Positions 619-43,052 of a stretch of DNA of 64,000 nt are shown piece after piece; within the stretch, counting starts at the first letter, position 1; every line of letters begins with the position of its first letter. The position numbers were made by a program, and so were the translations under genes. The notes under the pieces are model-generated. The model was given only the letters and a program-made list of their open reading frames with translations, was not told the origin of the DNA and ran no database searches. The DNA lies in the NCBI GenBank assembly GCA_041690135.1, contig JAWLHY010000009.1, forward strand, positions 256,001 through 320,000, written 5' to 3'. This DNA is from Armatimonadota bacterium. Lineage in GTDB: Bacteria > Armatimonadota > SYMT01.

Positions 619-634
619 AAATGGCTATTGGCTG

Positions 635-1360: not shown

Positions 1361-1364
1361 CGCC

Positions 1365-10294: not shown

Positions 10295-10364
10295 TTCCAA
10301 TTCTGGCGATGCCGACACAGGCTCTCTACGTAAGTAGTGATGAAGGTGGGAGGATCGTGCGACG

Positions 10365-24339: not shown

Positions 24340-26343
24340 TTACTTGACGGCGTCGACGAGCTTGCGCACGGCATTCAGGTCGAGCTTGCCGTAGCCCCAG
24401 CGGGGGTTGGGCACGCTCCCGGTGAAGCGATCGCTGGTGGCGCTGCGTTCCAGCAGCTTCTTGATTTCTCCGCTCGTGAGGTCGCGCTTCTTCTCCATCA
24501 TCAGGGCAATGACTCCGGAAAGATACGGAGTGGCGGCACTGGTGCCGTTGAAGGGCTGGTAGAGGCCCGAAATGTGAAGCAGCTTGTCCCCGCCGGTTTG
24601 GGTCGGCGCGGGCGCGATATGGAATTGACCCGGCGCGGCGATCTCCGGCTTCAGCGTGCCGGTGCGGCTGGGTCCGGGGCAACTGTAGCTGGAAAGCCCC
24701 CCGATGACCAGCGGGGACGGCTTGCCGTCGGAAGTGGTCCGGATCACGTCACCCAGGATCAGCTTTCCGCGCTTGGATTCGAACTCGTTATTCCAGTCGT
24801 AGCTGCCGACTGTGATAGCGCTGGCGGTCGTGCCGGGAGTGCCGACCTGTTTGCCCAGGCTGACGCAGGGACCCGTGAACACCGCGCGACTTTTCGATCC
24901 GAAGGCGGAGATGTAGGCATCCGCCTTCCGGGATGCGCCGGTGGGGCTGAAGAGGCGGAGCTCACCGGCTCCAGGCTGAAGGTCGATCGACCAGACGAGC
25001 TGCTTGGTGAGCGGGTGAATGCGCCCCCGTCCCTTCCGCAGGTCGAGCTTCGACTCCAGGTTGGTGCGCAGGGACACCTGTTTATCATCGCTGTCGAAGT
25101 AGACGTCCAGCGTGGCCGCCACGGCGTCGGCGGGAACGCTCCAGGTGAAGATGCCAGGAGAACTCTCGCCGGCAAACGAGACCTCGCCGTGGATAGCGTC
25201 GGCGCCGTCGTTTCCGGCGGCGATGCAGAGCGCCCGGCCAGGACGGTCCGGCGCGTAACGGGCACTGAGTTGTCGCTCCAACACCCGCTGACCGTCCCTG
25301 CCGCCGAGCTGGCCGCCGAAGCTACAGGAGACCACAGTCGGACGGGGGCCGGTCACCGCATCGATCCAATTGGCGATGGCGCCCATCAGGTAGGAGTTCG
25401 GGAGCCCCGGTCCGGGGCCGATCCGCACCCCGATGATATCGGCATTCGGCGCCACTCCGGTGTAGCGGCGGTCCGGCAGGGCCTGCCCGTTGCCGGCCGC
25501 GATCCCGGCGCAACTCGTACCATGGCCGTTGGTGTCCAGCGGAGCGATGGTGGGTGAGGGTTCTCGCAGCGCCGCGGTCAGGTCTTCCTGGGTGTAGACT
25601 GTGCCCAGGCCCCGCCCGTTCTGGAAGGCGACCGGGCCCTGCCGCCCCGGCTTACCGGGTTCCCAGTCCGTCATCGTATCCCAATAGTGGGTGATGCGGG
25701 AGATGGGCTTGCCGGTGGCGTCCTTGGTGATGAAGTCCGGGTGGCGGAAGTCGATGCCCGAGTCGACAACCGCCACGACCACACCCCGGCCGGTGAGCCC
25801 GGAGAGGCCGCCGCGAACGATCGGCTCTGCGGGCGCTCGGCTAACGGCGGTGCGGGTTTCCGGCGGCGGGGGCACAGTGACCCGGCGGCCGAGTTCCACC
25901 CAGACCACGCCGGGCGCCGTGGTTACACTCTTGAGGGCGCTCGCCTCTTTCGTGTCGACAAACACGTCGGCCCACTTCTCGAAACGGTTGAAGACCCGGA
26001 CCCCGGGGGCGTTGAGCTTGCTGCAGGACTCCGCGGAATCGAATTCCGCATGGGCGACCAGATAGGTGCTGTTCTCCTGCTGCGTCGTGGCGCCGTCCGC
26101 GGCAGGTCCCGTGGGAGGGGCACCGGCCTGGAGCGCCTGGGCGACCCCGGCATCCGCAGGGGAAAGCTGACCGGGGGTATTTCCCATGGCTAGCGGGACC
26201 ACAGGTCCCAGGGTCCGTTTGAGCCCGGCGCCCCTGGACGTCTTCGTGCCGGCCGGAGGGGCGGCTTTGGGCGCGGCGCCGGCCACACCGGCAACAGCCA
26301 GGGCAGCACAGAGGATAGCAGGTTTGCAGGTTCGGTGCTTCAA
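24340..26343 (-). CDS. Secreted S8 (subtilisin-like) serine peptidase
   Basis: Catalytic triad VAVVDSG, NGHGTSCAGIAAG and NGTSAATP; oxyanion AAGN; signal peptide. Confidence 0.95.
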   Translation of the reverse strand: MKHRTCKPAILCAALAVAGVAGAAPKAAPPAGTKTSRGAGLKRTLGPVVPLAMGNTPGQLSPADAGVAQALQAGAPPTGPAADGATTQQENSTYLVAHAEFDSAESCSKLNAPGVRVFNRFEKWADVFVDTKEASALKSVTTAPGVVWVELGRRVTVPPPPETRTAVSRAPAEPIVRGGLSGLTGRGVVVAVVDSGIDFRHPDFITKDATGKPISRITHYWDTMTDWEPGKPGRQGPVAFQNGRGLGTVYTQEDLTAALREPSPTIAPLDTNGHGTSCAGIAAGNGQALPDRRYTGVAPNADIIGVRIGPGPGLPNSYLMGAIANWIDAVTGPRPTVVSCSFGGQLGGRDGQRVLERQLSARYAPDRPGRALCIAAGNDGADAIHGEVSFAGESSPGIFTWSVPADAVAATLDVYFDSDDKQVSLRTNLESKLDLRKGRGRIHPLTKQLVWSIDLQPGAGELRLFSPTGASRKADAYISAFGSKSRAVFTGPCVSLGKQVGTPGTTASAITVGSYDWNNEFESKRGKLILGDVIRTTSDGKPSPLVIGGLSSYSCPGPSRTGTLKPEIAAPGQFHIAPAPTQTGGDKLLHISGLYQPFNGTSAATPYLSGVIALMMEKKRDLTSGEIKKLLERSATSDRFTGSVPNPRWGYGKLDLNAVRKLVDAVK

Positions 26344-26680: not shown

Positions 26681-27241
26681 GTGGTCGTCGAGATGATTGA
26701 GAGTTATATGTCCTGGGAAGGCGGGGTGGATCTGGTAGGCAGCACGGATCCGAACTCCGCACAACCCAATGTCATCATCCACGTGGCGCGCGTGGTTCAC
26801 ACTCCCGTCGGTTCCGCGCCATCCGGACTGGTTCTTTTCCAGCCGGACCCGGCGGCGCCACCCGCCGTGATAGGGTTTGTATCGGCCGATTCCACGGTGG
26901 GTGCCTATTTTGGACCGCACATCTTCGCAGGCACCCCGTTCGAGGCCGCGCCGGTACTGGAAGCGGAGATCCAGATCCAGGAAGACCTGCCAGGAACTGT
27001 CGGAGCGCGGGTCCGTGTGGGTAATTACCTCTTCGAGACACGCCTGTCGCAACTGGCTCCGCTGGAAGTCGTGCACCGGCCCGCGCAGCACTTGCCGTTC
27101 CTCCAGCAGGGGTTGGAAGCGGCCGCCGGCTCCGTGGAAGTCCGGGTGAACGGGAACGCGACTCAGGTGTTCGTTCCCCAAGTGGGGATGTCCGGCGGCC
27201 CAGGTGCTGTCTGGGCGCCGTGCGGCGTCTACGCCCGCTAG
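26681..27241 (+). CDS. Hypothetical protein
   Basis: Coding-like frame (ESYMSWEGGVDL...AVWAPCGVYAR). Start is uncertain (GTG 26681 or ATG 26693). Confidence 0.65.
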   Translation: MVVEMIESYMSWEGGVDLVGSTDPNSAQPNVIIHVARVVHTPVGSAPSGLVLFQPDPAAPPAVIGFVSADSTVGAYFGPHIFAGTPFEAAPVLEAEIQIQEDLPGTVGARVRVGNYLFETRLSQLAPLEVVHRPAQHLPFLQQGLEAAAGSVEVRVNGNATQVFVPQVGMSGGPGAVWAPCGVYAR

Positions 27242-30200
27242 TTGCTCGCCGGTAGGCTCCGCCACTGCCCCAGGAGCGCGAAGGGGGCCCAGTAGTACGG
27301 GTGAGTGTATTTCTTGCCGCGCAGCAGTGAGAGTTGGGCCTGTCGCAGGGCTTCGGCACGCGACTGCGGCTGCCTCTCCCGCTCTTTAGCCAACTCACGG
27401 TAGAAGGCCGTCATCAGGGCGCCGGTGCTTTCGTCCGCTACCTGCCAGTGGCTGGCAACGGTGCCGGCCGCTCCACCGGCGAAAAGGGCCCAGGTCAGGC
27501 CCAGAATACCCTCGCCGCGCACCTTTTGACCGAGGGCCGTTTCGCAGGCGGACATCACGACGAGGTCGGCACTCAACTCCATCTCCGCCAGCTCCCGGGC
27601 CTGCAAGAAGCCGTCGTGGCGTCCGTCACCTGTCAAGACGAGAGAGGAGAACATGGGGGCGGAAGGGTCGAGCATGCCGTGCGTCGCAAAGTGTGCGAAG
27701 CGCGCGCGTCGCAGCAGTTCGTGTGCACGGCTTTCAAGGGCACGCTCTCCCGTCAAAACGACGGCCCCCGACCCGAAATGACGCGAGATGGCGTTCACCT
27801 CTCCTGCCGCCGCCGGAAGCTCGGGAAGACGAGTAGGAAACACCGGGCTTCCGAAGGCTACCAGCGGGAGGCGATCTCCGCGTGCCGGTCTCCGCTGGAG
27901 CATCTCTGTCATCCGGAGTAGGGCCGTGGCGGATGGCGCATAACTGATCGCGTACTTCGCAGCCAGCGGTGTCGCACCCGAGTCGAGCAGGGCGGCAAAA
28001 GCAAGCGTGCTCAACTCGGTATCCGGAACCACGATCAGATGCTCCTTCCCGGCCAGAGCCGGGGCGGCCGGAGCGATGAGCCGCTGGAAGAGCCAACGAC
28101 CCGCAGCTTCATAGTCGCCGCCCGGCGTCGAACACCCCTGCCAGTGCTCGTCAACTCGGTTCGCGAGTTGGGAGCGGGTGACGGACGACCGGTACAGCTC
28201 AATGCGCGGTTGCCCTCGCTTGTCGTGATGGAGCACGAAGAGCAGGGTCTCCCGGTCGAGCACCAGGTAGGAAAGCAGCGCGGACTTCGGCGAGGCCGCG
28301 AGTAGCTTCGTCAGGAGTTCCTGGGGGGCCGCGGGAGAAAACTCGGCGCGGCGCGTGCGGAGGTCCGGAAGCTGCAGGAACAGACGCTCCCGGAACGCCT
28401 GGAGATCGGAGCGGACCTGGTTGCGCTCCTCGGTCAGCTTCTCCAGGGCATCCGTCAGGACTGTCTTATCGATGGCGGTGGAGAGTGAAGCCAGACGACT
28501 CTCCAACGAGGCTTCTCTCCCCTTTTGCTCCGGAGTCATCGAGCGCGTGAGGCGGACGTTCCCGCTCCGAAGGACGTCGACCAGCGCGCGGGCCTTGAAT
28601 TGTTCGGAGACGGCGAAGGCCTGGGCCGTGTCTCCCACTTTCAAATAGCTATCCGCCAGTTTCAGATAGACGGATGCGTGGAGACGGAGAAAGCTGGTCT
28701 GGAGGGAGCCGACTTCGGCCTGCGTGCGGATCTGTTCGATCAACTCCACGGCCTGGCGGAGATGGATGGCTGCCTGGGGGTAGTTTTTCCAATCGCGGTA
28801 GAGATCCCCCTGGTGAATCCGGATCATCTGGAGGACCGCGGAAGCCCCAGCTTCCGCCGCCATCGCGGCTGCCGTCTCGAAATGCCGGGCGGCAGCCGCA
28901 CGGTAATCCGGCTGCCGGCGTTCGCGGAGATCCACGACCGCCAGGCCCATTGTGGCCATCGCTTCCATGCCCCGGTGGCGGTTGGCACGGGCCGCGTCCA
29001 ACATCTCCCGGTAGGCGTCGCGGGCCGCATTCCACGCTTCCATCCGCACGCCGACCTCGCCCAGGTTGCTCCAGATCTGTGGCAGGAACCGGTCGTTCTT
29101 CAGCTCGCTTGCCAGCTTCGCGCTGGCGAAGCCGCTTTCCATGGCCTCATCCAACTGGTTGCGCTCCAGAAGGTAGACGGTCAGGTTGTGCTGGGCAATC
29201 AACTCGTCTTCCTTGCGCCCCAACTTCCGGGCCAGTTGCACGGCTGCCCGGAGTGCTTCGTTGGCTTCCGCGAAGCGCCCGACCACCTGATAGAGATTGC
29301 CCAGGTTTGTGAGGATCGGCCCTTCCGCCGTGAAGTCGTCGATCTCCTGAAAGATGCGGCGGGCCTCTTCGTAGCCGCGCAGGGCTTCGGCGTACCGTTG
29401 GAGGTCCTGCTGCACCGCCGCGATGTTCCCGATGAGGATAGCCTGCGTGCGGCGGTTGCCGAGTTTGCGCTGGAGTTCGAGGGCAGTCTGGTAGGAGGTG
29501 AGGGCGTCGGTGGGTTTTCCGCTGTACTGCTGTGCTAGGCCGAGGTCCTGAAGCGCGGCAGCTTCCTCGGGTGCGTCTTTGATCTTCCGGAAGTGCTCGA
29601 TGGCCAGGTTATATGCCTTGAAGGCCTTATCGTAGTTCGCCGTCGTGCTGTAGATGTGCGCGCTGTTGCGCCAGATCTTCGCGAGACCTTCGTCATCCTG
29701 GAGCTTTTCAAAGAGCTGCCGGGCCTGTTCGTTGTCCCGGAGGGCGACGTTCCACTGCAATTGCTTTCTCCGGACGTAGCCGCGTATCAGGTAACAGTAG
29801 GCGCGCTCGAAGTCACTCTTCATCCACTCGGCGGCCTCAAACGAGAGTTCGACGAAGCGATCCGCCTCCTCTGGTTTACCGGCGTCGGCGAGCTTGTTCG
29901 CCTCTCCGCGCAAGGAATAGGGGAGCCAGCCCCCCGCGAGGTCGGAGTTGCGGTCCAGCAGCGCATGACGGTCCGCGGGGGAAGCGGCTTTCAAAAAGGA
30001 TTGATAGAAGTGCCGCTCCGCCATTCGGAAGCCGTGGAGCTTCCAGGCGCCGGCCTCGAACACGAAGCGGAGATCGAGGGTCTGGGCCCCCTCGACGGGA
30101 GCGCCGTTCTTGGGGTCTTTCGTCTTCCAGTCCAGGCGAATCCGGCCGAAAGCTACTTCTCCATCATCGGACTGGATACGGAACCGGGAGTGGCGGAGCT

Positions 30201-30462
30201 CCACGCCGCGGTCCGCCGCCAGTTCCTGGGTCAGGTAGGTCCAGAATTCCTGGTTGAGAGCCCGGTCCGCGATCATCCAGCGGAACGCCTCTGTCTGGTC
30301 TCGCCGCGCGAACGCTTCGAGGAACCGCTCAACGGCGGTGCGTTGAGCCATCTCCGCCGTCGTCTGGGCCGGCAGCGGTCCGACGAGCGTCAGGATGAGA
30401 AGAACGGCAAAAAGGCTAGCAAACATGCCGGAGTACCGGGGACCATCTGCCAAGCGGACCAT
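27238..30462 (-). CDS. TPR + CHAT (caspase-like clan CD peptidase) domain protein with signal/TM peptide
   Basis: Catalytic HFATHG and MSACETALG; ASHWQV.D and HPYYWAPF; TPR array. Probable ATG 30462 after AGGAAGGA. Confidence 0.93.
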   Translation of the reverse strand: MVRLADGPRYSGMFASLFAVLLILTLVGPLPAQTTAEMAQRTAVERFLEAFARRDQTEAFRWMIADRALNQEFWTYLTQELAADRGVELRHSRFRIQSDDGEVAFGRIRLDWKTKDPKNGAPVEGAQTLDLRFVFEAGAWKLHGFRMAERHFYQSFLKAASPADRHALLDRNSDLAGGWLPYSLRGEANKLADAGKPEEADRFVELSFEAAEWMKSDFERAYCYLIRGYVRRKQLQWNVALRDNEQARQLFEKLQDDEGLAKIWRNSAHIYSTTANYDKAFKAYNLAIEHFRKIKDAPEEAAALQDLGLAQQYSGKPTDALTSYQTALELQRKLGNRRTQAILIGNIAAVQQDLQRYAEALRGYEEARRIFQEIDDFTAEGPILTNLGNLYQVVGRFAEANEALRAAVQLARKLGRKEDELIAQHNLTVYLLERNQLDEAMESGFASAKLASELKNDRFLPQIWSNLGEVGVRMEAWNAARDAYREMLDAARANRHRGMEAMATMGLAVVDLRERRQPDYRAAAARHFETAAAMAAEAGASAVLQMIRIHQGDLYRDWKNYPQAAIHLRQAVELIEQIRTQAEVGSLQTSFLRLHASVYLKLADSYLKVGDTAQAFAVSEQFKARALVDVLRSGNVRLTRSMTPEQKGREASLESRLASLSTAIDKTVLTDALEKLTEERNQVRSDLQAFRERLFLQLPDLRTRRAEFSPAAPQELLTKLLAASPKSALLSYLVLDRETLLFVLHHDKRGQPRIELYRSSVTRSQLANRVDEHWQGCSTPGGDYEAAGRWLFQRLIAPAAPALAGKEHLIVVPDTELSTLAFAALLDSGATPLAAKYAISYAPSATALLRMTEMLQRRPARGDRLPLVAFGSPVFPTRLPELPAAAGEVNAISRHFGSGAVVLTGERALESRAHELLRRARFAHFATHGMLDPSAPMFSSLVLTGDGRHDGFLQARELAEMELSADLVVMSACETALGQKVRGEGILGLTWALFAGGAAGTVASHWQVADESTGALMTAFYRELAKERERQPQSRAEALRQAQLSLLRGKKYTHPYYWAPFALLGQWRSLPASN

Positions 30463-30995
30463 AAGCCGTTTCCTTCCTAACCCACCATCGGCCGGCACGA
30501 CCCCTCGCTCTGGCCACCGGAGTTTCCGGGGGCGCCATCCCGGTTCCTCAATCCCCAGGACTTCGCCAGGGCCATGCCCCGAGAATCTTTCGCTGCTCCC
30601 ACGCCGGATGGTTCCCACACCACTTACCAATATGGCTGCACCACGGGCGACCTATAGCTTGGGGAGTAACGACCCTACCGTTGCAACTTACAACTGCAGG
30701 GAGAGACGCTTCCTTCCTGAGAAGGGAAGCTCTTATCCACCGATGAACGGCTATCTGCAGGCTCCATTTGTGCTTAAGATTAAAGTATTTCGCATATTGA
30801 TTGACTATGCACCAATTCTATTGCGAGTAGGAATAGATCTGGTCCGTTAGAAGGGAAGGCTGATGTGACCGCCGACAATCCGAGGGGGCTTTCGTGACGG
30901 AAGTCAAAGTTGTAATTCGATTTGCAATTATCGGGGCATTCTGAAAAGCCGGAAGGTCAATCCCTTTGCTACGGTGGGAGCCGGGCGAACGGCCT

Positions 30996-32900
30996 ATGAG
31001 CAGTATTGGTGCGATTTTGGATTGGTCCGGAGACGGGCTGCTGGCACGGGGTCTCTGCCGGATGGCGGAGAAACTGGACCGTCGGGGTCGCGATGGCGTG
31101 GACACCTGGTCGGAGGGGAAGGTGGGCCTGGTCCACGCTCATGCCTGGGTTCTTCCGGAAGAAGTGGGGGAGAGGCAGCCGATCACCTCCCCATGCGGTC
31201 GGCTGCGGATTTCGGCGAACGCCCGGATCGACAACCGGCCGGAATTGCTCGCGGAGCTGGTGGGTCTTGGGATCCAAGCGCAGTCCAGCGATGCACAGTA
31301 CATCCTGGCGGCCTATCAGCGATGGGGAGAGGACTGCGTTCAGTACCTGGTGGGGGACTTCGCATTTGCCCTGTGGGATGCGGATCGGGAGATACTCCTC
31401 TGCGCGCGCGATGCGTTGGGCGTGCGACCGCTGCACTACTCCCGGTCCGGCGGAAGCGTAATCGTTGCGAGTGAAACCGGAACCCTTCTGGCGGCTCTGC
31501 CGCAAACGCCCCACTTCAACCGTGCATTCCTCGAAGATCTGCTGGCCAATGCCTGGGACCGTTCGTTGCACGAGACGGCGTACCAGGGGGTCTACCGGGT
31601 TCCCCCAGGCTACCGGATCACTTTCCGCCGGAATGACGTGCGCCTGGTGCGCTACTGGGATCCGAAGGCGGTTGGGTCCTCGGTTGAATTCGGTGCGCCG
31701 GAGTGCTTCGAGCGTTTCCACGCCCTCCTCTCGCGGGCGGTTTCGGATCGACTCCGGGCCATCGATCCAGTGGGAGTTGCCGTGAGTGGTGGGATGGACT
31801 CCTCCTCCATCGCCTGCCTGGCACAAGAACTGCAACCCAAACAGGATGTCCAAGTGCCAGTTTGGTTGCTTACAACGATTTATGAATGCACTCCGGGCGC
31901 GGATGAGCGGGATTACTTCGAGGCGGTGGCCGCACGCTGCCCTGCCCTGCAAGCAGAGCGAATCCTTTCGGATGACTGCTGGTCGCTCCGGGAGTTTGGG
32001 ACGGACGGTGGATTTCCGCTGGATGAGCCTGAGATTGGCCTGAACCGCACGCTCCTGCTGCGCCTGATCCGCCAGGCGCGAGCGAAGGGATGCCGCGTGA
32101 TGCTGAATGGTTGCGGCGGTGATCAGGTACTGGGGGGCGAGCCGTACCACCTGCCGCACCTGCTGCAGGATGTCGGACTTGCGCGCCTGTGCGCGGAGTT
32201 GCCGCACTTCCGGCGGTGCAGTCGCCGTCCTCTCTGGTGGATTCTGCTGGCGGCCTATGGATTGCCGCTCTTCGGCGGGGAGATCTCCTCCCGCTTGCGG
32301 AGTTTGCTCCGGGGGCGAGAAATGGATGCCGCGGGGTTACCGCTCCGTCGCCCCAGTGCGGCGCCGCTTGCCCTGCCGGAGCCGTTGCAAGCGCCGGAGT
32401 TCTCCACGCGAGCGGCTGCGGAGAGTTACCGGCAGTTGACGCACGGACTCTTCGTGGCCAGTCTCCAGGAGTTCGAAATCATCGGGGGGGAGACAGGCGT
32501 GGAGTGGCGCTTTCCGTTCCTGGATCGCCGCCTGGTCGAATTCATGTTGGGCGTACCTGCCGCTGCGCGATTCGCCGCCGGGTGGCCCAAGCGCATGGTG
32601 CGAGAAGGCTTGCGCGGCGTACTGCCGGAGAAGGTGCGTTTCCGGCAGGGCTACGCTCACTTTAGCGGCTTGATCGAACGCGGACTGCGGGAGCGTGAGG
32701 TGCCGCGGCGTCAGGAATTGTTGCGGGACCCTCTGCTGGTGTCGTGTGGCCTGGTCGAGCGGGAGCGCCTCGCGCGGGCCTGGAGTTACTGGGAGGATCG
32801 GCCGCAAGTGAACTGCTTGCAGCCGTTATTCTCCTCTCTTTTAGTGGAAGCGTGGCTGCGCCATTTTTCGCCCGGGGCTCTCGCCGCGCTGCAAAGTTGA
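30996..32900 (+). CDS. Lasso peptide cyclase (isopeptide bond-forming, asparagine-synthetase-like C protein)
   Basis: No N-terminal catalytic Cys (MSSIG instead of MCGI). ARIDNR.EL, GDFAFALWD, RDALGVRPL, PP-loop SGGMDSS, GGDQ, RFPFLDRRLVEF. A lasso precursor follows 46 nt downstream. Confidence 0.9.
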   Translation: MSSIGAILDWSGDGLLARGLCRMAEKLDRRGRDGVDTWSEGKVGLVHAHAWVLPEEVGERQPITSPCGRLRISANARIDNRPELLAELVGLGIQAQSSDAQYILAAYQRWGEDCVQYLVGDFAFALWDADREILLCARDALGVRPLHYSRSGGSVIVASETGTLLAALPQTPHFNRAFLEDLLANAWDRSLHETAYQGVYRVPPGYRITFRRNDVRLVRYWDPKAVGSSVEFGAPECFERFHALLSRAVSDRLRAIDPVGVAVSGGMDSSSIACLAQELQPKQDVQVPVWLLTTIYECTPGADERDYFEAVAARCPALQAERILSDDCWSLREFGTDGGFPLDEPEIGLNRTLLLRLIRQARAKGCRVMLNGCGGDQVLGGEPYHLPHLLQDVGLARLCAELPHFRRCSRRPLWWILLAAYGLPLFGGEISSRLRSLLRGREMDAAGLPLRRPSAAPLALPEPLQAPEFSTRAAAESYRQLTHGLFVASLQEFEIIGGETGVEWRFPFLDRRLVEFMLGVPAAARFAAGWPKRMVREGLRGVLPEKVRFRQGYAHFSGLIERGLREREVPRRQELLRDPLLVSCGLVERERLARAWSYWEDRPQVNCLQPLFSSLLVEAWLRHFSPGALAALQS

Positions 32901-32946
32901 AGGAACCCGGAGGAGCAACCCACCGGGACCAAGGGATGAAAGTACG

Positions 32947-33147
32947 ATGGAAATGGAACAAAAGGGAACGCCTGTCAAAACCCTGGCTCAGCCGGCGTAC
33001 GCGGGATCGGACACTGCGGCGCAGATGCCCCGGAAGAAGGAATACCGTCCACCGCTCCTGGAGCGCCTGGGTCCCCTGGAAGAATTGACCCAGGGTGGAA
33101 ATGGCGCCTTTTCCGACGCCCCCCTCGCCGGCACCCGCGCTTTCTAG
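32947..33147 (+). CDS. Lasso peptide precursor (A); predicted core GGNGAFSDAPLAGTRAF at 33094-33144
   Basis: Leader Y-x-x-P-x-L (YRPPLL), then LG.L.ELT with Thr at -2. Core starts with Gly and has Asp at position 8. Confidence 0.93.
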   Translation: MEMEQKGTPVKTLAQPAYAGSDTAAQMPRKKEYRPPLLERLGPLEELTQGGNGAFSDAPLAGTRAF

Positions 33148-33338
33148 GGTTCCCCCGCCCCGTCCGACGAGTTCTTTCACTGTTTTGGTCGCGTTTGTAG
33201 GCGACCCGCTCCCCTTCCACTGCGCCCCTGGCAGCCAGGCTCGGAACAGTTCCCCAGGTTTCCGGCCCGCCTGCCGAACGGCCACAATTTTGGACCGGCG
33301 GCCCGATTTCCCCGGCAGCGGTTCGAGGAACGACTGAA

Positions 33339-36300
33339 ATGGGTTACGTGCGGAAGTTAGCCTGGCTGCTATTGCTGGGCGTAGTCTCTATGCTGATCAC
33401 GACCGGAGCGATCAGTTCCGAGTCTCTGGGTTCGGCCGCGAGACGCGCCGCGGCGCTGCGTCCGGTCCGAAGAGGCCGCGGCGGCTTTCTGGATTCCGGG
33501 CCGAAAATGGCCGAGACCCGGCGGAAACTGGCGAACCTGTGGCGCAACCGGGTGATCCGCGAGCGGATCCGCCGCCGCCTGGATCTCCGCACTCCGGCTC
33601 CGACGGCCGGCCGTCCCCGCCAGCGCCGGCCGCTGGTGGACGGTCCCGCTCCCGGGGAGTACGTTTACTTCCCGAGTGGCGCAGTCGACGACGGTCGGTT
33701 CCTCACAATTGCGGGCACCACGGGTTCCGCCACTCTTGCGACGGAAATCAAGGTGAAGCTCGCGGCGCCCAGCACCGCGGGAACGCTCGAGATCGGGATC
33801 TTTGACGGGGATACCAGTGGACTGTGGGACCAGGGCACCGGAGCGCTGGAATATACGCTGTATGAGGATAAGGACGGCAACGCGAGTGGAACTACGCAAG
33901 TAGGGCAGTGGTCCGGCTCCGCGATGTCGGACAACACCTGGTTCAGCACCTCGATCAGCACCGGCCCGGGCGCGCAGGCGCCCAGTGGCAACTACTTCTA
34001 CTACCTGCGGGTGCGCCTGGTCGATACGACCTCCATTACGCTCAGCAGCTTCAAGATCCGGACCAATGCCAGCGTCCGCCTGGAACCCCAGAACTCGTTC
34101 AACGTCATCGCCCCGGTCTCTTCGGAGGCGGCCGCGCAGATCATCTATCCCGATTGGCCCTCGCTCACGCCGACGACCTACGACGGCTCGTGGAATTTCT
34201 ACGCCTATGTTCCGAATTCCACGACCTTCTTCGACGTGTGGGATGGCGACCTTGACTTCGGTACTTACAACGGCAGCGTTAAGGACACGGACGACCAGAA
34301 CACAACGACCATCCCCGCCTGGGCGACCGGCACGCCGGCCAACCTGGACGGCGCCTCTTCCGGGTTGAATGCTTCCTCCGGGAATCCGCCGGACGACGAC
34401 ACCCACGCGGTTTTCCGGCGCTCGCCGGACGTCGTTTACGACGTTACGGACCCAAACGGCATTCGGTATTTCAACGGCAACCCTTCCGGAAATCTGGAGT
34501 GGGAGAACTTCCGCATCGATACGGCGCCGTTCAACGCGAGCAACATGGACTACCACGCCGACGAGCTTCCTCCTGGCGTGTATGAGGTTCATATCGACGG
34601 CCTCGACATCAACAACCTGGATGCCTTCCGCTTCGATTTCGACCTCCTGGGGGTCGACAAAGACGGGAACCCCGTCCGCCCCCTGCTGCCCTACATCGTG
34701 GGCGATACGGTGTGGATCGACCAGGTGGCGGACAATGCCTTCGGTGGATTGGGTTCGGGAGAGGGCCACGCAAACGTTACCGTGGAACTGCTCGACGCCA
34801 ACGGGTTCACCCTGGATACGACCACCACGGATGCGCAGGGGCAGTATAGTTTCCCGGTAGAAGCAGGGACCTTTACCGTCTACGTTTCACCGGCGAACTT
34901 CCTTCCGACCGGACCTCTTGCGGGGTACCGGAATATCGCGGGCGGCTCCAACACGCTCACCTACACGGTAGTCAACGCTAATGTCGACACGTACGACTTC
35001 GGGTACCGGGCGGAGGGTCCCGACCGCCTGGGGGATCGGGTGTGGCTTGACGTAGACGGGGATATGACACAAGACTCCGACGAACCCGGCATAGGGGGGG
35101 TCACGGTCATTCTCCGGGATAACGGCGGCGTGCAACTCACGACGACGGTGACGAACGCTAACGGCACGTATCTGTTCACCGGGCTGGCCGCCGCGACTTA
35201 CCAGGTGCAGGTGGACACTACCACCCTGCCGCCCGGCCTGACCCAGACGCACGACCTGGACGGCACGGGAACAGCGCACCTCGCGACCGGCGCCCTGGTG
35301 GGTGGCACCGAGAAGCTGGACTTTGACTTCGGCTATCGGGGGACCGCCTCGATCGGCGACCGGGTCTGGAACGATGTGAACAACTCCGGCGTCCAGGACA
35401 GCGACGATCTCGGCATTGGCGGAGTGAAGTTGGTGCTTACGGGCGATTTCAACGGAGACGGCACCGCGGACCTGACCGCTACCGATACCACCGACTCCAC
35501 CGGTGCCTACCTCTTCGACCGGTTGCCCAGCCTCGACACCGGGACCTATCCGGGTGCGAAATACACGGTGAAGGTGGATACCAACACGCTGCCATACGGC
35601 CTCACCTTGATTTCCGATCCGGACGACAGCCCATCCGTGGCCACGCCCAACCGGTCGGAAGTGACCAGCCTATCCGTCGGACAGGCGAACCTGGTCCAGG
35701 ACTTCGGCTACCGCGGCGGCGGCTGTCTCGGCGGCACCCTCTGGAAGGATGACGATCAGGACGGGAAGATCGATACCGGCGAGACGGTCTTCAGCAACAT
35801 CACCGTGACGCTCTCGGGCGATCTGAACCTGGACGGCGTGTTCGGTGAGTATGCAACGAGCCAGTTGACGGATGCCGACGGCAAGTACTCGTTCACAAAT
35901 CTTCCCGGCGGACGTTTCAAGATCGTGGTCACGGCGTCACAATTGCCTTCCGGCGCCACCTGGAGCCCGACTTACGATGTAGACGGTACCGGCACTGCGA
36001 GCGAGGCGACCCTGATGCTCCACTCTCGGGTCTGTCGGACGGACATCGACTTCGGTTACCGGGCCACAGCCACCGTGACGGGACTGGCCGGAACCGTGTG
36101 GCATGACACCGGCGTGGACGGGATTCTCGATCCGGGTGAGGATGGCATTCCGAATGTCACCGTCAGCATCAGTGGCCCGACCAGCGCCAGCATGCAGACG
36201 GATGCGGACGGCAAGTACAGCTTCCTGGGAATCCCCGCCGGAACGTACACCGTGACGGTGACCCATGCGGAAGTGCCGACCGCCTACAACACTCCCACCG

Positions 36301-38036
36301 GTGACTACGACGGCCTGGGCACCCAGAACACCGCCTCCGTGGCGGTACCCGCGGGCACGACCGTGCAACCTGTGAACTTCGGCTACGTTGGCGTTTGCAA
36401 CCTTGGGAACCGGGTTTGGGACGACCTGGACTTTGATGGAATCCAGGACACCGCGGAATTCGGTACCGGCACGGAGCCGGGGATCAGCGGCGTGACCGTC
36501 CAACTGTACTCGGCGACTACGCTCACCTTCATCGCCAGCACACCGACGGACTCTAACGGGAACTACCAGTTCCAGAACCTGCTACCGGGCGCCTACTACG
36601 TCAAGTTCATCGCCCCTTCGGTCAACCACGTGTTCAGTCCCAGCCTGGAAGGGTCGAACCGCGCGGTGGATAGCGATCCCGATACCGTGACCGGGGAATC
36701 GGGGGTGGTGACCCTGACGGAGGGCACCACGAACCTGACGGTGGACTGCGGCTTCTACGACATCTCCAAGGGCCAGAGCGTGGGCGACCTGGTGTGGATC
36801 GACGCCAACGCGAACGGGGTGCAGGACGCCGGAGAAGCCGGTGTGGCCGGCGTGACGGTGGAACTCTACCGCCAGAGCACGGGCGCGCTGTTGCAAACCA
36901 CCGTCACCAACAGCGACGGCAACTATCTGTTCACGGGGGTGGGGGTCGGCCGGCACTATGTGAAGTTCTACCTGCCGAACGGCTTCGCGTTCACCCAGGC
37001 ACTCCAGGGTGGCGACACGACGAAGGACAGCAATGCCAACGCCTCGACCGGCATCACCGCAGAGTTCCAGGTAAACGGCGGAAACGACGTTTTCACCATC
37101 GACTGCGGCCTGCTGTCGCCGATGATCGAAGGCTGCGTGTGGTATGACCAGAACCGGGACGGGGTGTTCCAGTACACGGAATCGGGCCTGGGGGGGGTGA
37201 CGGTCCAACTTTACAGTGGCGCAACGCTCCTGAAGACCACCACCACTTCGGGCGGCGCCTTTACTTTCACTGGTGTGGCCGCGGGTGTTTACACCGTGAA
37301 GGTGGTCACTTCTTCCCTTCCCGCGGACAAGACGATCGCGACCGTGGACTCGGACGACATCCAGCCGCCGTTGCTCACCCCCCACGAGGTGATCGTGGAC
37401 GTGGAAGCACTGCCCACGGGTACGGACGGGTCTGTTTTCGTGGGGCCGAAAGCATGCTTCGGCTATTCGGTAGCGCCGCGGCTCAATACGGCCAGCAACT
37501 ACCGGTCGCAGACGCAGGGCGGTTGGGGGGCCGAACCCCGCGGCGGGAACGCCGGCGGCTTCCTCCATGCCAACTGGACCACGGTCTACCCAACGGGCAC
37601 GCTGGTAGTGGGGAAAGAGGCGGGCGCCAGTGGTTCGTTCTGGAATATCTTCCTGAACGGTGCCCAGGCGGTCACCAACTTCCTCCCGCAGGGCGGAACG
37701 GCGAGCGTCCTGACGCAGAACCACACGAACCCGCTCAGCACGGAAGCGGGGGTCCTCGCCGCGCAACTGGTCACCGCCCAGATTAGCCGCGACTTCTCGG
37801 CCGCAGGGGTGACGAAGAGCGGCTTGGGCAGCCTGAAGCTGACAAACCCGCCCAACGCGAGCAACCCTTTCAAGGGTTACTCGCTGGATAAGATCCTCGT
37901 CGTCGGCAACCGGGTGCTGTCCGGCAACCTGAACGCTCTGCCGAATGGCGCTACGATCACCCATCTCAACGAAGCCCTGGACTACTTGAACAACTGCTTC
38001 GTCGATGGGATCGAGGACAAGGGCTACTACCGCTAG
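33339..38036 (+). CDS. Large secreted protein with 8 SdrD-B-like (CnaB-type Ig) repeats
   Basis: Eight G(D/G/T/N/C)x(V/L)W.D starts with DxNGxQD-type loops, TD..G.Y.F..L motifs and DFG(Y/F) ends. Signal peptide present. Confidence 0.9.
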   Translation: MGYVRKLAWLLLLGVVSMLITTGAISSESLGSAARRAAALRPVRRGRGGFLDSGPKMAETRRKLANLWRNRVIRERIRRRLDLRTPAPTAGRPRQRRPLVDGPAPGEYVYFPSGAVDDGRFLTIAGTTGSATLATEIKVKLAAPSTAGTLEIGIFDGDTSGLWDQGTGALEYTLYEDKDGNASGTTQVGQWSGSAMSDNTWFSTSISTGPGAQAPSGNYFYYLRVRLVDTTSITLSSFKIRTNASVRLEPQNSFNVIAPVSSEAAAQIIYPDWPSLTPTTYDGSWNFYAYVPNSTTFFDVWDGDLDFGTYNGSVKDTDDQNTTTIPAWATGTPANLDGASSGLNASSGNPPDDDTHAVFRRSPDVVYDVTDPNGIRYFNGNPSGNLEWENFRIDTAPFNASNMDYHADELPPGVYEVHIDGLDINNLDAFRFDFDLLGVDKDGNPVRPLLPYIVGDTVWIDQVADNAFGGLGSGEGHANVTVELLDANGFTLDTTTTDAQGQYSFPVEAGTFTVYVSPANFLPTGPLAGYRNIAGGSNTLTYTVVNANVDTYDFGYRAEGPDRLGDRVWLDVDGDMTQDSDEPGIGGVTVILRDNGGVQLTTTVTNANGTYLFTGLAAATYQVQVDTTTLPPGLTQTHDLDGTGTAHLATGALVGGTEKLDFDFGYRGTASIGDRVWNDVNNSGVQDSDDLGIGGVKLVLTGDFNGDGTADLTATDTTDSTGAYLFDRLPSLDTGTYPGAKYTVKVDTNTLPYGLTLISDPDDSPSVATPNRSEVTSLSVGQANLVQDFGYRGGGCLGGTLWKDDDQDGKIDTGETVFSNITVTLSGDLNLDGVFGEYATSQLTDADGKYSFTNLPGGRFKIVVTASQLPSGATWSPTYDVDGTGTASEATLMLHSRVCRTDIDFGYRATATVTGLAGTVWHDTGVDGILDPGEDGIPNVTVSISGPTSASMQTDADGKYSFLGIPAGTYTVTVTHAEVPTAYNTPTGDYDGLGTQNTASVAVPAGTTVQPVNFGYVGVCNLGNRVWDDLDFDGIQDTAEFGTGTEPGISGVTVQLYSATTLTFIASTPTDSNGNYQFQNLLPGAYYVKFIAPSVNHVFSPSLEGSNRAVDSDPDTVTGESGVVTLTEGTTNLTVDCGFYDISKGQSVGDLVWIDANANGVQDAGEAGVAGVTVELYRQSTGALLQTTVTNSDGNYLFTGVGVGRHYVKFYLPNGFAFTQALQGGDTTKDSNANASTGITAEFQVNGGNDVFTIDCGLLSPMIEGCVWYDQNRDGVFQYTESGLGGVTVQLYSGATLLKTTTTSGGAFTFTGVAAGVYTVKVVTSSLPADKTIATVDSDDIQPPLLTPHEVIVDVEALPTGTDGSVFVGPKACFGYSVAPRLNTASNYRSQTQGGWGAEPRGGNAGGFLHANWTTVYPTGTLVVGKEAGASGSFWNIFLNGAQAVTNFLPQGGTASVLTQNHTNPLSTEAGVLAAQLVTAQISRDFSAAGVTKSGLGSLKLTNPPNASNPFKGYSLDKILVVGNRVLSGNLNALPNGATITHLNEALDYLNNCFVDGIEDKGYYR

Positions 38037-38042: not shown

Positions 38043-40091
38043 GTGGACGCAATGAGGATTCAGCAGTACCTCACACGAAGACAGGCGGACCGGGAGGGGA
38101 AGGGTAGCTTTCCTCTCCCGCCGCGACGGCTCCATCCGGCTTCCCTGTGCGCCATGGGGATGGGCCTGGGTTTGACCTACCTGGGGGCACAGCCCGCCGT
38201 GTCGGAGACGGCGCCTAACCCCTCCTGGAGCAAACTCTACAACGGCGCCGGCAACTTCTACGACTATGCCCGCGCGACCACCGTGGACACCGCCGGCAAC
38301 GTTTACGTGACGGGCAGTTCGGATGGGGACTACGTTACCGTCAAATACGGTCCCACCGGGTCTCAACTCTGGGCGGCCCGTTACGATGGTCCCCGCCACG
38401 GTCTCGATACCCCTACTGCCATTGTTGTGGACAGCGCCGGAAACGTCTACGTCACCGGCGCTTCCTACGGGGGAAACCCCGCCCTGGCCGGGACGGACTT
38501 CGACTTTGCCACCGTCAAGTACGACCCCGCTGGGGATGAACTCTGGGTCGTCCGTTACGACGGACCGGCCGGACGGGAAGATGCGGCCGCGGCGATGACC
38601 CTCGACTCCGAGGAGAACCTGTGCGTGGCCGGCACCTCTTCCACCCTCGCCACGGGCAAGGACTTTACCCTGATCAAGTACTCCCCGGCCGGTGAGGAAC
38701 TCTGGACCTCGCGGTACGACGGCACCGGTGGCGCCGACACCCTGGCGAGCCTGGCGATCGGGAGCGACGATACCCTGGTGGTCACGGGCGAGTCGTGGGG
38801 TGGAGTTTCCCTGATGGACTTCGCCACCGTAAAGTTCAGTGCGGCGGGTACGCGACTGTGGGCCGCCCGTTTTGACGGCAACCTTGCCGCGGATGCAGCG
38901 GTCGCGGTGGCGGTCGACAGCACCGGAGCGGTCTACGTGACCGGCGCCACCGATGGGGGGCCCGCGGGCGCCGGAGGGAGCGAGCTGGACTACGCCACCC
39001 TAAAGTACACGGACCAGGGCGGACAGGTGTGGCTCAAGCGTTATGACAGTGGAAGCCGTAACCTGGACGTTCCGGCCGCTCTGGCGGTGGACGTTAATGG
39101 AAACGTGTTCGTCACCGGCCGGTCCCGGACCCCTACTGGCGGGTACGGCTTTCTGACCCTCGCCTATAACACGGGCGGGACCCAGTTGTGGTCGGATCGG
39201 TATGACGCCAGCGGCAACCGGGATGATTACCCCACCGGTCTCGTCGCCACCGGGGTCGGTACCCTCTACATCGCGGGCCAGGCGACGGCCGGCTCGGGGC
39301 GGGTGGGCTTCGCCACCCTCAAGTACAGTCTCGCCGGCAGTCGACTCTGGGTGGCGCGGTATGACGGACCCACGAACGGCGATTCCGCGCCGGTCGCCAT
39401 GGCCCTCCAGGGAGACGATGCCCTGGTGGTGGCCGGAACCGCCTGGGGGACCAGCGGCACCCAGGACTACGCCACGCTGAAGTATCTCATCGGCGCCTCG
39501 GCTCCCCCGTCCGCCCCGAGCGGTCTCGTCGGCGCTCCCACTTCCGCCGGCGACGTTCTCCTGACCTGGCAGGACACCAGCGGGGATGAAGCGGGGTTCC
39601 GGATCGAGCGAAAACTCGGCCGTGCCGACTACGTGGAGGTCGGCACGGTAGGCGCCGGGGTTACCAACTTCGTCGACATGAGCGCCGCACTCCGGTCGAA
39701 GTATCGCTACCGGGTAGTGGCCTTCAATGCCCTGGGGAGTTCCGCGCCTTCCAACGAGTTGGCGGTGAATCTTCCCGCTCGCCTGACCACGCGTATCTCC
39801 GTTTCGCCGACGAAGGTGAAGTTCCCCCGAGTACGGATCGGCAGTACCGGAAGCAAGTCGGTCACGGTGCGCAACCTCGGCAGCACCATCCTGACCGGAC
39901 GCATAGTAGCGCCCTCGACTCCGTTCAGTGCGGCGAGTGAGGAGTTCACGTTGTATCCCCGGGCTCGGAAGCAAGTGTCCGTGCAGTTTGCCCCTACCGC
40001 CACGGGTGATTTCACCGGTGAGCTGCAGGTGGAGAGCAACGATCCCAAGAAGCCGGTGGCTCCGGTGAAACTTTCGGGTAAAGGCTTCTAA
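38043..40091 (+). CDS. SBBP-type beta-propeller (8 blades) + fibronectin type III + choice-of-anchor D/ASH-like Ig domain
   Basis: Repeats W...Y(D/N)G...AVD..GNVYVTG....DFATVKY. FN3 PSAPSGL...LTWQD.S.DE.GFRIER...YRYRVVAFN. C-terminal V.N.G...F.P...G...SND. Confidence 0.88.
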   Translation: MDAMRIQQYLTRRQADREGKGSFPLPPRRLHPASLCAMGMGLGLTYLGAQPAVSETAPNPSWSKLYNGAGNFYDYARATTVDTAGNVYVTGSSDGDYVTVKYGPTGSQLWAARYDGPRHGLDTPTAIVVDSAGNVYVTGASYGGNPALAGTDFDFATVKYDPAGDELWVVRYDGPAGREDAAAAMTLDSEENLCVAGTSSTLATGKDFTLIKYSPAGEELWTSRYDGTGGADTLASLAIGSDDTLVVTGESWGGVSLMDFATVKFSAAGTRLWAARFDGNLAADAAVAVAVDSTGAVYVTGATDGGPAGAGGSELDYATLKYTDQGGQVWLKRYDSGSRNLDVPAALAVDVNGNVFVTGRSRTPTGGYGFLTLAYNTGGTQLWSDRYDASGNRDDYPTGLVATGVGTLYIAGQATAGSGRVGFATLKYSLAGSRLWVARYDGPTNGDSAPVAMALQGDDALVVAGTAWGTSGTQDYATLKYLIGASAPPSAPSGLVGAPTSAGDVLLTWQDTSGDEAGFRIERKLGRADYVEVGTVGAGVTNFVDMSAALRSKYRYRVVAFNALGSSAPSNELAVNLPARLTTRISVSPTKVKFPRVRIGSTGSKSVTVRNLGSTILTGRIVAPSTPFSAASEEFTLYPRARKQVSVQFAPTATGDFTGELQVESNDPKKPVAPVKLSGKGF

Positions 40092-40108: not shown

Positions 40109-40615
40109 GTGAGGAAACGGTCCCCACGCTCTACCGGTTGCCGTTCGGCCTTTGTCAGCTTCGCCTGGGGTGAGCCGGATTGCACGGTCCGCAGCGGGAA
40201 CACCTCCGATCGGGAACTCGCCTGGCGTTTGCTCCCACCGCACCTTTGCCTCCAGGCTGCGACAGCCGCGCAGGTTGTGCCCGTCAGCGAGCAGGATGAG
40301 GCTCGGGGATCTCTCTGGCCGGTGAAAGACCTGCTCTTCGGAGAGTTCGAGGGGGAACTCCTGCTGGCCCGCGACGAAATCGGTGAGGGGTATCGCCTCT
40401 CCGGTATTGGGGCGGAGTTCTGGCGGTCCATCCTTGCGGGTGAGCCCGCCGCCGAAACGGCGGAACGCTTGAGCCGCGTCTACGACGTAGACGCCGGTAC
40501 CGTTTGCACGAATTTGGAAGGCTTCACCCGCACGCTGCTCCAGCAAGGTTGGCTGCAGCCTGCCGGTGCGGCGGATGGGGATGGGCAGGAAGTCCCGAGC
40601 ATTCCGGAGAGGTAA
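40109..40615 (+). CDS. PqqD family RiPP recognition element (lasso B1/E protein); real start may be GTG 40277
   Basis: EFEGELLL....GEGYRLSGIGAEFWRSI.....ETAERLSRVYDVD.....LEGF...L.QQGWL matches the PqqD 3-strand/3-helix pattern. Confidence 0.85.
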   Translation: MRKRSPRSTGCRSAFVSFAWGEPDCTVRSGNTSDRELAWRLLPPHLCLQAATAAQVVPVSEQDEARGSLWPVKDLLFGEFEGELLLARDEIGEGYRLSGIGAEFWRSILAGEPAAETAERLSRVYDVDAGTVCTNLEGFTRTLLQQGWLQPAGAADGDGQEVPSIPER

Positions 40616-40748
40616 TACCGAAGAGGTGATAGAGGACAGCGGCGGCATTCCCCTTAACCAGGTAGCAACGGATCCATGTCGGACCCGTCGATGGCAGCGT
40701 CCCGCGTCTACACTACGATCCGCGGGCTTCCACGGTAAGGAATGTGGG

Positions 40749-42794: not shown

Positions 42795-43052
42795 GGTCTC
42801 AGTATACGGTTCGGTTCGAACGCTGTCGCATTGCTCCGGAAACGGAAGCTTCCGGATGGGGAGGATGTACCTTTGCGGCGGGACCGCGAAGGCACTTCCG
42901 CAGGACGCTCGCTAACTTACAACAACTCCGCAGCCTGGCGCGGGAGGTGCTGAGGCGGAAATAGAGAATTACAGATGGGTCCTTTCCCAAGTGTGTTGTG
43001 GACCCGGTTACTCAGCATCAAATTATCTCCAGCGTTGGAGAGGGAGTCGTCC

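What the first reader, a model, noticed from the sequence alone, without database searches (positions are those of the whole stretch)
32947..33147. Predicted new class II lasso peptide, core GGNGAFSDAPLAGTRAF
Seen: leader ...KKEYRPPLLERLGPLEELTQ has the YxxPxL RRE-binding motif and Thr at -2. The 17-aa core starts with Gly1, has Asp8 as its only acidic residue, and has no Cys. Inference: an 8-residue Gly1-Asp8 macrolactam threaded by the tail, with Arg15/Phe17 (or Leu11) as steric plugs. Hand-summed monoisotopic residue masses give about 1589.76 Da for the cyclised product ([M+H]+ about 1590.8). The leader is long (49 aa from ATG 32947; an alternative ATG lies at 33025). I do not recognise this core as a described lasso peptide.
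Basis: partly seen in the sequence, partly recalled or inferred. Interest (0 to 1): 0.8.

Follow-up and report, generated by a model that had tools for sequence, protein, structure and literature searches.

The report
New lasso peptide precursor, incomplete cluster
A small gene next to a lasso-cyclase gene in a probable planctomycete encodes a previously unseen but otherwise ordinary lasso-peptide precursor, and the protease needed to mature it is not in the 64 kb we can see.

Summary
ORF 32947-33147 (+) encodes the 66-aa peptide as quoted. It starts 46 nt after the stop of an asparagine-synthase-like lasso cyclase gene (30996-32900), on the same strand. It passes NCBIfam's lasso leader model NF033521 (22.5 bits, cut-off 19). 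It also matches a profile of 36 precursors from cyclase-relative loci, built without the window (E 2e-11). Thr at -2, Gly1, Asp8 as the only acidic residue, no Cys, and the mass (1589.7586 Da cyclised) all check out.

No similar core turned up in a 5.8-billion-protein set, in the related loci, or in the searched literature.

The locus is atypical. The only RRE/B1 gene (about 40277-40615) lies 7 kb downstream, behind two large surface-protein genes. No B2 leader peptidase and no ABC exporter is present in the window. Of 32 related loci with a recognised precursor, 28 carry B2, usually in the order B1-B2-C-A.

So this is a genuine precursor with a new core, in a very well-known RiPP class. Whether the peptide is made depends on a B2 gene outside the window. 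Verdict: new member of a known kind, modest interest. Production and threaded topology remain untested.

The parts
30996..32900 (+). Lasso cyclase (C), 634 aa, asparagine-synthase homologue
   Evidence: Pfam Asn_synthase 1.6e-40 and GATase_7 1.4e-27. Best NCBIfam model is lass_lactam_cya, 361.5 bits, E 9.5e-108, but below its curated cut-off of 525. Start at ATG 30996 as in the database record of 634 aa. Keeps 43 of 43 columns invariant in 29 relatives and 87 of 90 columns that are at least 90% conserved. Ser rather than Cys at position 2.
32947..33147 (+). Lasso precursor (A), 66 aa from ATG 32947; alternative starts at 32953 and 33025
   Evidence: NF033521 lasso_leader_L3 22.5 bits, above cut-off 19. 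Profile of 36 relatives' precursors E 2e-11.
33043..33060 (+). YxxPxL motif (Tyr33-Leu38) of the leader, the expected B1 (RRE) binding site
   Evidence: Role of the motif from PMC6784204 (passages).
33094..33144 (+). Predicted 17-aa core; Gly1 (33094-33096), Asp8 (33115-33117); stop codon 33145-33147
   Evidence: Junction placed after Thr(-2)-Gln(-1) by alignment with relatives. Mass.
40277..40615 (+). PqqD-like RRE (B1), about 112 aa; start uncertain (GTG 40277 favoured; TTG 40229 and GTG 40109 also in frame)
   Evidence: Pfam PqqD 31.6 bits, above cut-off 23.4. Profile of 62 B1 ORFs from 59 related loci, window excluded: E 1.3e-9, model positions 2-77 of 80, the only hit among 886 window ORFs. 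Best PDB match is the lasso RRE TbiB1, 5v1u, E 0.0026. The coding G+C pattern starts only near 40271.
33339..38036 (+). Interposed gene: 1565-aa secreted protein with 8 SdrD_B repeats (context; not shown to belong to the pathway)
   Evidence: N-terminal hydrophobic segment seen.
38043..40091 (+). Interposed gene: 682-aa SBBP beta-propeller / choice-of-anchor D protein (context; not shown to belong)

Best explanation
ORF 32947-33147 is a real lasso-peptide precursor gene (A), lying directly downstream of its lasso cyclase gene (C, 30996-32900). A split-type RRE (B1, about 40277-40615) sits on the same strand 7 kb further on. Inferred mechanism, by analogy with characterised split-B pathways: B1 binds the leader through Tyr33-x-x-Pro36-x-Leu38. 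A B2 cysteine protease, not encoded in this window, cuts after Gln49, guided by Thr at -2. The cyclase then activates the Asp8 side-chain carboxylate with ATP and joins it to the Gly1 amine around the pre-threaded tail. The product would be a 17-residue class II lasso peptide with an 8-residue ring and a 9-residue loop and tail (1589.76 Da). Shown here: the identity of A, C and B1, the position of the junction and ring residue by homology, and the absence of B2 and of an ABC exporter from the window. Inferred: that B2 exists elsewhere in the genome, that the peptide is produced, its threading and its plug residues. Its biological activity is unknown.
For: Precursor: NF033521 above its cut-off. 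A profile built without the window gives E 2e-11, a unique hit among 1271 ORFs. The precursor aligns with 36 precursors found beside cyclase relatives, sharing K-K/R-x-Y-x-x-P-x-L...G....(L/I)T-x-G and an acidic residue 7-9 residues into the core. Cyclase followed by precursor is the common order in those loci.

Cyclase: the best NCBIfam model is the lasso cyclase. It keeps 43 of 43 invariant and 87 of 90 near-invariant family columns. It has no Cys2 glutaminase nucleophile, like 28 of the 29 aligned relatives.

B1: a lasso-B1 profile gives E 1.3e-9. The best solved relative is TbiB1.

Complex prediction of B1 with precursor residues 27-66 gave weak support: score 0.38, best of 3 controls 0.00. 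The mark was reached by 116 of 157 solved complexes and 2 of 215 mismatched pairs. At 0.60 or under it was reached by only 18 of those 157 and by both mismatches that passed. The three runs agree in at least 77% of their contacts and the partner's pLDDT is at least 54. Like complexes are solved (TfuB1-leader 6jx3; TbiB1 entries 5v1u/5v1v), so the pass may come from memory.

All genes from C to B1 are on the + strand. No terminator-like site was found in 30500-33500, which covers C, A and the start of the next gene.
Against: No B2 (transglutaminase-like leader peptidase) in the window. Pfam scans of 130 ORF translations found none. A B2 profile built from 58 ORFs in 56 related loci gave a best E of 0.68 among all 886 window ORFs of 40 aa or more. 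Of 32 related loci with a recognised precursor, 28 have B2, usually directly between B1 and C. No ABC transporter domain was found in the window. B1 is separated from C-A by two unrelated large genes. The cyclase scores below NCBIfam's curated cut-off (361.5 against 525). B1 scores only 17.9 bits on NF033536 (cut-off 80). The precursor selection in the related loci used a regular expression, so the invariance of Y, P, G and T in A3 is partly by construction. No promoter-like site was found upstream of the cyclase.
Confidence: 0.7

Rival explanations
1. Orphaned or decaying cluster. A rearrangement broke an ancestral B1-B2-C-A unit and B2 was lost. The precursor is still encoded, but this organism makes no lasso peptide.
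For: B2 is absent from 64 kb. B1 is displaced by 7 kb, behind two large genes. Relatives mostly keep B1-B2-C-A contiguous: 54 of 79 loci have both B1 and B2. There is no exporter gene.
Against: The cyclase keeps 43 of 43 invariant and 87 of 90 near-invariant columns. A and B1 are intact ORFs with a coding G+C pattern. Four of 32 related loci with precursors (L040, L045, L049, L075) also have no B2 hit in the fetched stretch, which does not reach 10 kb on both sides in all four, so B2 in trans or absent in cis is not unique. Only 64 kb of a 366-kb contig is visible.
Confidence: 0.22
2. Non-canonical maturation. The leader is removed by a protease other than B2, for example a housekeeping protease or one of the neighbouring proteases, and the cyclase then closes the ring.
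For: Pseudomycoidin can be made in vivo from the core alone by the cyclase, without a leader or leader peptidase (PMC6993621, abstract read). A TPR-CHAT protein (27238-30630) lies divergent to the cyclase, and an S8 subtilase (24340-26343) is nearby.
Against: The leader keeps the full B1/B2 recognition signature (YxxPxL, Thr -2), which argues for the canonical route. The CHAT protein has an N-terminal hydrophobic segment that suggests export. Nothing links either protease to lasso loci in the relatives scanned: they are absent from the 38 neighbouring ORFs scanned from 5 related loci that have B1 but no B2 hit.
Confidence: 0.05
3. The junction or ring is different: cleavage one residue later, giving a 7-residue Gly2-Asp8 ring, or another start of the core.
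For: The core begins Gly-Gly, so a shifted cut would still expose Gly. Rings of 7, 8 or 9 residues are all known (PMC6784204).
Against: Thr is conserved exactly two residues before the core in the 37 aligned precursors (partly by construction of the search) and in lasso peptides generally (PMC6784204 figure legend).
Confidence: 0.03
4. The ORF is a chance open frame in G+C-rich DNA. The PqqD-like gene belongs to another pathway, such as PQQ synthesis or another RiPP.
For: The strict motif arises by chance in 18 of 100 simulated windows. A PQQ-dependent dehydrogenase gene lies at 46259-48568.
Against: The position right after the cyclase, NF033521 above its cut-off, and profile E 2e-11. No pqqB/C/E or radical-SAM gene was found in the window. 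The best solved relative of the PqqD-like protein is a lasso RRE, and no true PqqD chain appears at E of 1 or less.
Confidence: 0.01

Closest known systems
Split-B lasso pathways with YxxPxL leaders, e.g. fusilassin/fuscanodin (TfuA/B1/B2/C; TfuB1-leader structure 6jx3)
   Same: The leader carries YxxPxL plus Thr at -2. There is a separate PqqD-like B1 and an asparagine-synthase-like cyclase. The product is class II with no Cys. A B1 family profile that includes the window's B1 hits TfuB1 at 1e-11. The motif's role is taken from PMC6784204.
   Different: Here B1 is 7 kb from C-A, and B2 and an exporter are missing from the window. The core is unrelated in sequence.
TbiB1 system of Thermobaculum terrenum (PDB 5v1u/5v1v)
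   Same: Best solved relative of the window's B1 (E 0.0026, 72 aligned residues; family profile 2.6e-26).
   Different: The single-sequence similarity is low. Different organism and different core.
B1-B2-C-A loci of cyclase relatives in GTDB genomes (e.g. L073 Vicinamibacterales MAG, L072 Gemmatales MAG, L051 Acidobacteriaceae MAG)
   Same: Same leader family and the cyclase-then-precursor order. Cores begin Gly with an acidic residue at position 8 in many. L051's second precursor has the nearest core (about 7.5 of 17 matched positions).
   Different: Cyclase identity is at most 35%. Those loci have B1 and B2 immediately upstream of C, and some add kinase or methyltransferase-like genes.
Pseudomycoidin (Bacillus pseudomycoides)
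   Same: A precedent that a lasso cyclase can act without the leader peptidase (PMC6993621 abstract).
   Different: That result used a leaderless core. Its cluster and tailoring (phosphorylation, glycosylation) have no counterpart here.
Short class II lasso peptides with a Gly1-Asp8 ring such as chaxapeptin and sungsanpin (recalled from memory, not checked by any search)
   Same: Similar size (15-17 residues), an eight-membered Gly1-Asp8 ring, a hydrophobic or aromatic C-terminus.
   Different: Actinobacterial origin. The core sequences differ. No comparison was run here.

Membership tests
Lasso peptide precursor (A) | Leader with the RRE-binding YxxP(xL) motif | tested here: met
   Tyr33-Arg-Pro-Pro36-Leu-Leu38. 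NF033521 22.5 bits, above cut-off 19. Profile E 2e-11.
Lasso peptide precursor (A) | Thr at the penultimate leader position | tested here: met
   Thr48-Gln49, then Gly50.
Lasso peptide precursor (A) | Core with a small N-terminal residue and Asp/Glu at position 7, 8 or 9 | tested here: met
   Gly1 and Asp8, the only acidic residue in the core. Criterion from PMC6784204.
Lasso peptide biosynthetic locus | Asparagine-synthase-like lasso cyclase (C) next to the precursor | tested here: met
   30996-32900, 46 nt upstream of A. The best NCBIfam model is lass_lactam_cya (361.5 bits), although below its curated cut-off of 525. Relatives at 27-35% identity sit in B1-B2-C-A loci.
Lasso peptide biosynthetic locus | RRE / B1 (PqqD-like) domain | tested here: met
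   About 40277-40615, 7 kb from A. PF05402 31.6 bits, above 23.4. Lasso-B1 profile E 1.3e-9. NF033536 gives only 17.9 bits against a cut-off of 80.
Lasso peptide biosynthetic locus | Leader peptidase B / B2 (transglutaminase-like Cys protease) | tested here: not met
   No Pfam hit in 130 ORF translations. B2 profile best E 0.68 in 886 window ORFs. The rest of the genome was not visible.
Lasso peptide biosynthetic locus | ABC exporter (D) or isopeptidase (frequent, not obligatory) | tested here: not met
   No ABC_tran domain in the window. The only S9-like hit beside B1 is a 346-aa BD-FAE esterase-type protein at 40566-41606.
Class II lasso peptide | No disulfide bridges (no Cys in the core) | tested here: met
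   The core has no Cys. Class definition from PMC6784204.
Lasso peptide (mature product) | Isopeptide macrolactam with the tail threaded through the ring and held by plug residues | not testable with these tools
   Needs MS, protease and heat challenge, and NMR. The assignment of Arg15/Phe17/Leu11 as plugs is inference only.

The most novel reading that the evidence does not exclude
The locus may be a working, non-canonical lasso system in a planctomycete-like bacterium. In this reading C and A are co-transcribed with two giant secreted surface proteins and B1, and the leader is removed without a dedicated B2, by an unrelated protease or one encoded far away. That would give the first lasso peptide from this phylum and a natural B2-independent pathway, possibly linked in function to the cell-surface proteins in the same gene string.
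Probability: 0.07. Interest if true: 0.6.

Novelty: new member of a known kind. Interest (0 to 1): 0.3.

Why it matters
If produced, this would add one more class II lasso scaffold (17 residues, Gly1-Asp8 ring). It would come from a lineage, probably Planctomycetota, for which my searches found only genome-mining mentions of lasso clusters and no characterised peptide. That is useful for natural-product mining but not surprising, because lasso precursors with new cores are predicted in very large numbers. The more instructive point is architectural. The cluster is split and lacks B2 in cis, as do 4 of 32 related loci with precursors. Cluster-based mining rules that demand adjacent B and C genes would miss or misjudge such loci.

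Tried and rejected
1. A word-based search with the precursor found only itself (1 of 1 candidate). A profile search with A3 found 69 proteins among 102 candidates, none with a similar core.

2. Literature. The core string occurs in 0 papers and in 0 of 6 readable LassoESM supplementary files; file 4 was unreadable. Tietz et al. 2017 (RODEO) is not held. MIBiG and RODEO sets are not available here.

3. Looked for signs that the two large genes were inserted by a mobile element. There are no flanking direct or inverted repeats, only intragenic repeats. Third-position G+C is 0.70-0.73 for C, A and B1 against 0.79-0.81 for the interposed genes, but other window genes range from 0.62 to 0.90, so this is not informative.

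4. Looked for an attenuator hairpin after the precursor gene. The fold of 33140-33345 has z = +1.22, and 179 of 200 shuffles fold at least as well. No terminator-like or sigma-70-like sites in 30500-33500.

5. Rfam at gathering thresholds over the whole window: 0 matches.

6. Asked whether a recurring alternative protease replaces B2 in related loci that have B1 but no B2 hit. In 38 ORFs from 5 such loci I found nucleotidyltransferase (PF14907), HPr-kinase-like, ABC and polysaccharide genes but no protease, and none of these recurring genes occurs in the window.

7. Start codon of the precursor. In relatives the nearest upstream Met lies 4-27 residues before the Tyr. The window offers 6, 30 or 32, so this is unresolved. 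It does not affect the core.

Full report
**What is at the coordinates.** The window carries an ATG-initiated ORF at 32947-33147 on the + strand. The leader contains Tyr33-x-x-Pro36-x-Leu38 and ends Thr48-Gln49. The last 17 residues are GGNGAFSDAPLAGTRAF, with Asp8 as the only acidic residue and no Cys. In-frame ATGs also lie at 32953 and 33025.

**Is it more than chance?** A strict leader-plus-core pattern turns up 0.19 times per simulated 64-kb window read in six frames (18 of 100 simulations had at least one). The motif by itself is therefore weak evidence. The weight comes from context and profiles.
- The ORF starts 46 nt after the stop of a 634-aa asparagine-synthase homologue on the same strand.
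- It passes NCBIfam's lasso leader model NF033521 (22.5 bits, cut-off 19, E 8.2e-5).
- A profile of 36 precursors taken from loci of cyclase relatives, built without the window, hits it at E 2e-11. It is the only hit among 1271 window ORFs; the next best is E 0.9.
- G+C by codon position (0.69/0.51/0.70) resembles that of the neighbouring genes.

**The cyclase.** ORF 30996-32900 has Asn_synthase and GATase_7 domains. Its best NCBIfam model is the lasso isopeptide cyclase (361.5 bits, E 9.5e-108), ahead of true asparagine synthase (219.8 bits). Both scores are below their curated cut-offs. The nearest database relatives are only 50% identical and come from metagenomes. In an alignment with 29 relatives, the window protein keeps 43 of 43 columns that are invariant in the others and 87 of 90 that are at least 90% conserved. 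This includes the SGG-x-DSS nucleotide-binding stretch. Like 28 of the 29 aligned relatives, it starts Met-Ser rather than Met-Cys. From established knowledge of class II amidotransferases, this means it lacks the glutaminase nucleophile. Nothing suggests decay.

**Relatives and their gene order.** A scan of species-representative genomes returned 79 loci with cyclase relatives, at 35% identity or less. Both are present in 54. The usual order is B1-B2-C, with the precursor often just after C. A pattern search recovered precursors in 32 of the loci. They share the leader K-K/R-x-Y-x-x-P-x-L...G....(L/I)-T-x followed by a core that typically begins with Gly and has Asp or Glu 7-9 residues in. 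The window peptide aligns with them without gaps through the junction. These peptides were picked with a regular expression, so the invariance of Tyr, Pro, Gly and Thr is partly by construction. Their position beside cyclase genes is independent evidence.

**B1.** The only PqqD-like ORF in the window lies in frame 40109-40615.
- Pfam PqqD scores 31.6 bits against a cut-off of 23.4.
- The session's lasso-B1 profile, with the window excluded, gives E 1.3e-9 over model positions 2-77 of 80. It is the only hit among 886 ORFs.
- The best solved relative is the lasso RRE TbiB1 (E 0.0026). No true PqqD chain appears at E of 1 or less.
- The coding G+C pattern begins only near 40271, so GTG 40277 is the most plausible start.
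- A complex prediction of B1 with precursor residues 27-66 gave weak support: score 0.38, best of 3 controls 0.00. The mark was reached by 116 of 157 solved complexes and 2 of 215 mismatched pairs. At 0.60 or under it was reached by only 18 of the 157 and by both mismatches that passed. The runs agree in at least 77% of contacts and the partner's pLDDT is at least 54. Structures of like complexes exist, so this shows likeness at most.

**What is missing or odd.** No B2 is present in the window. Pfam scans of 130 ORF translations found no transglutaminase-like domain. The B2 profile's best E-value over all 886 ORFs of 40 aa or more was 0.68. No ABC transporter domain was found either. B1 is 7 kb from the precursor. 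Between them lie a 1565-aa protein with eight SdrD_B repeats (33339-38036) and a 682-aa SBBP/choice-of-anchor-D protein (38043-40091). Both have N-terminal hydrophobic segments, and all these genes are on the + strand. I found no flanking repeats that would mark an insertion. There is no terminator-like site or significant hairpin after the precursor, and no Rfam element. Absence of B2 in cis is unusual but not unique. Of the 32 related loci with a precursor, 4 (L040, L045, L049, L075) have no B2 hit even with filters off. B1 lies 5-7 kb from C in L012 and L017.

**Most likely mechanism.** By analogy with characterised split-B pathways (PMC6784204, passages read):
1. B1 binds the YxxPxL segment of the leader.
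2. A B2 protease, encoded outside the window, cuts after Gln49.
3. The cyclase adenylates the Asp8 side chain and closes it on the Gly1 amine around the tail.

The product would be a 17-residue class II lasso peptide. The identity of A, C and B1 and the junction are supported by the calls above. The existence of B2, actual production, threading, and the choice of Arg15, Phe17 or Leu11 as plugs are inference.

**Rival readings.**
- The main rival is that this is a broken remnant of a B1-B2-C-A unit that no longer yields a product (about 0.2).
- A less likely rival is leader removal by a non-dedicated protease. The pseudomycoidin work shows that a cyclase can act on a free core (PMC6993621, abstract). 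The intact B1/B2 recognition signature argues for the canonical route.

**Novelty.** The precursor has no relative sharing 5-residue words in a 5.8-billion-protein collection other than its own record. A profile search returned 69 precursor-like proteins, none with a similar core. The nearest core in everything I collected matches about 7.5 of 17 positions. The core string occurs in no paper of the searchable library and in none of the 6 readable LassoESM supplementary files. MIBiG and the RODEO tables could not be consulted, and Tietz et al. 2017 is not held.

The window's gene content (PSCyt1/PSCyt2/PSD1, DUF1501, DUF1559 with N-terminal methylation motif) points to a planctomycete-like organism. 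My searches found only genome-mining mentions of lasso clusters in that phylum, for example 10.1101/723874 (one passage read).

**Verdict.** This is a new member of a very well-known kind. Interest is modest, raised a little by the split, B2-less layout and the under-explored lineage.

Noticed in passing
window 27238-30630 (-) and 24340-26343 (-): A 1130-aa TPR + CHAT (caspase-like) protein with an N-terminal hydrophobic segment is transcribed divergently from the cyclase. An S8 subtilase lies just beyond it. Nothing ties either to the lasso genes.
   Followed up: partly
window 30631-30995: The 365-nt stretch upstream of the cyclase start is only about 50% G+C at all three codon positions, in a 63.7% G+C window. 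It is probably a regulatory intergenic region. No sigma-70-like promoter was found.
   Followed up: partly
window 16445-22512 (+): Two consecutive gene pairs of the same design: a TPR protein followed by an FG-GAP/UnbV_ASPIC protein (16445-17692 + 17689-19422; 19409-20806 + 20803-22512), with overlapping stops and starts.
   Followed up: no
window 28-11258 (+): A polysaccharide / O-antigen-type gene string: epimerase/dehydratase, PIG-L deacetylase, WbqC, DegT aminotransferase, GT4, Wzy_C ligase-like, dTDP-sugar epimerase, GT2.
   Followed up: no
window 53972-58863 (-), 22602-23321 (-), 42975-43751 (+): A DUF1501 plus PSCyt1/PSCyt2/PSD1 gene pair and two DUF1559 proteins with prepilin-type N-terminal methylation motifs. 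This is the basis for calling the organism planctomycete-like.
   Followed up: no
L025, L056, L075, L040, L041 (loci of cyclase relatives): These five loci have a PqqD-like B1 next to the asparagine-synthase homologue but no B2 hit. Three of them carry a PF14907 nucleotidyltransferase and two an HPr-kinase-like gene. Several sit among polysaccharide-synthesis genes (Wzz, GT1/GT4, Bac_transf, Polysacc_synt_2). Only L040 and L075 have a recognisable precursor. The others may use the B1-C pair for something other than a lasso peptide.
   Followed up: partly
window 40566-41606 (+): The gene after B1 is a BD-FAE / alpha-beta hydrolase with a twin-arginine-like signal (MKRRDFLIG...). It has weak Peptidase_S9 similarity but at 346 aa is far smaller than, and unlike, lasso isopeptidases.
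   Followed up: partly
window 46259-48568 (+): A PQQ-dependent dehydrogenase with a C-terminal cytochrome c domain. No PQQ biosynthesis genes (pqqB/C/E) were seen in the window, so the PqqD-like ORF at 40277 is unlikely to serve PQQ synthesis.
   Followed up: partly
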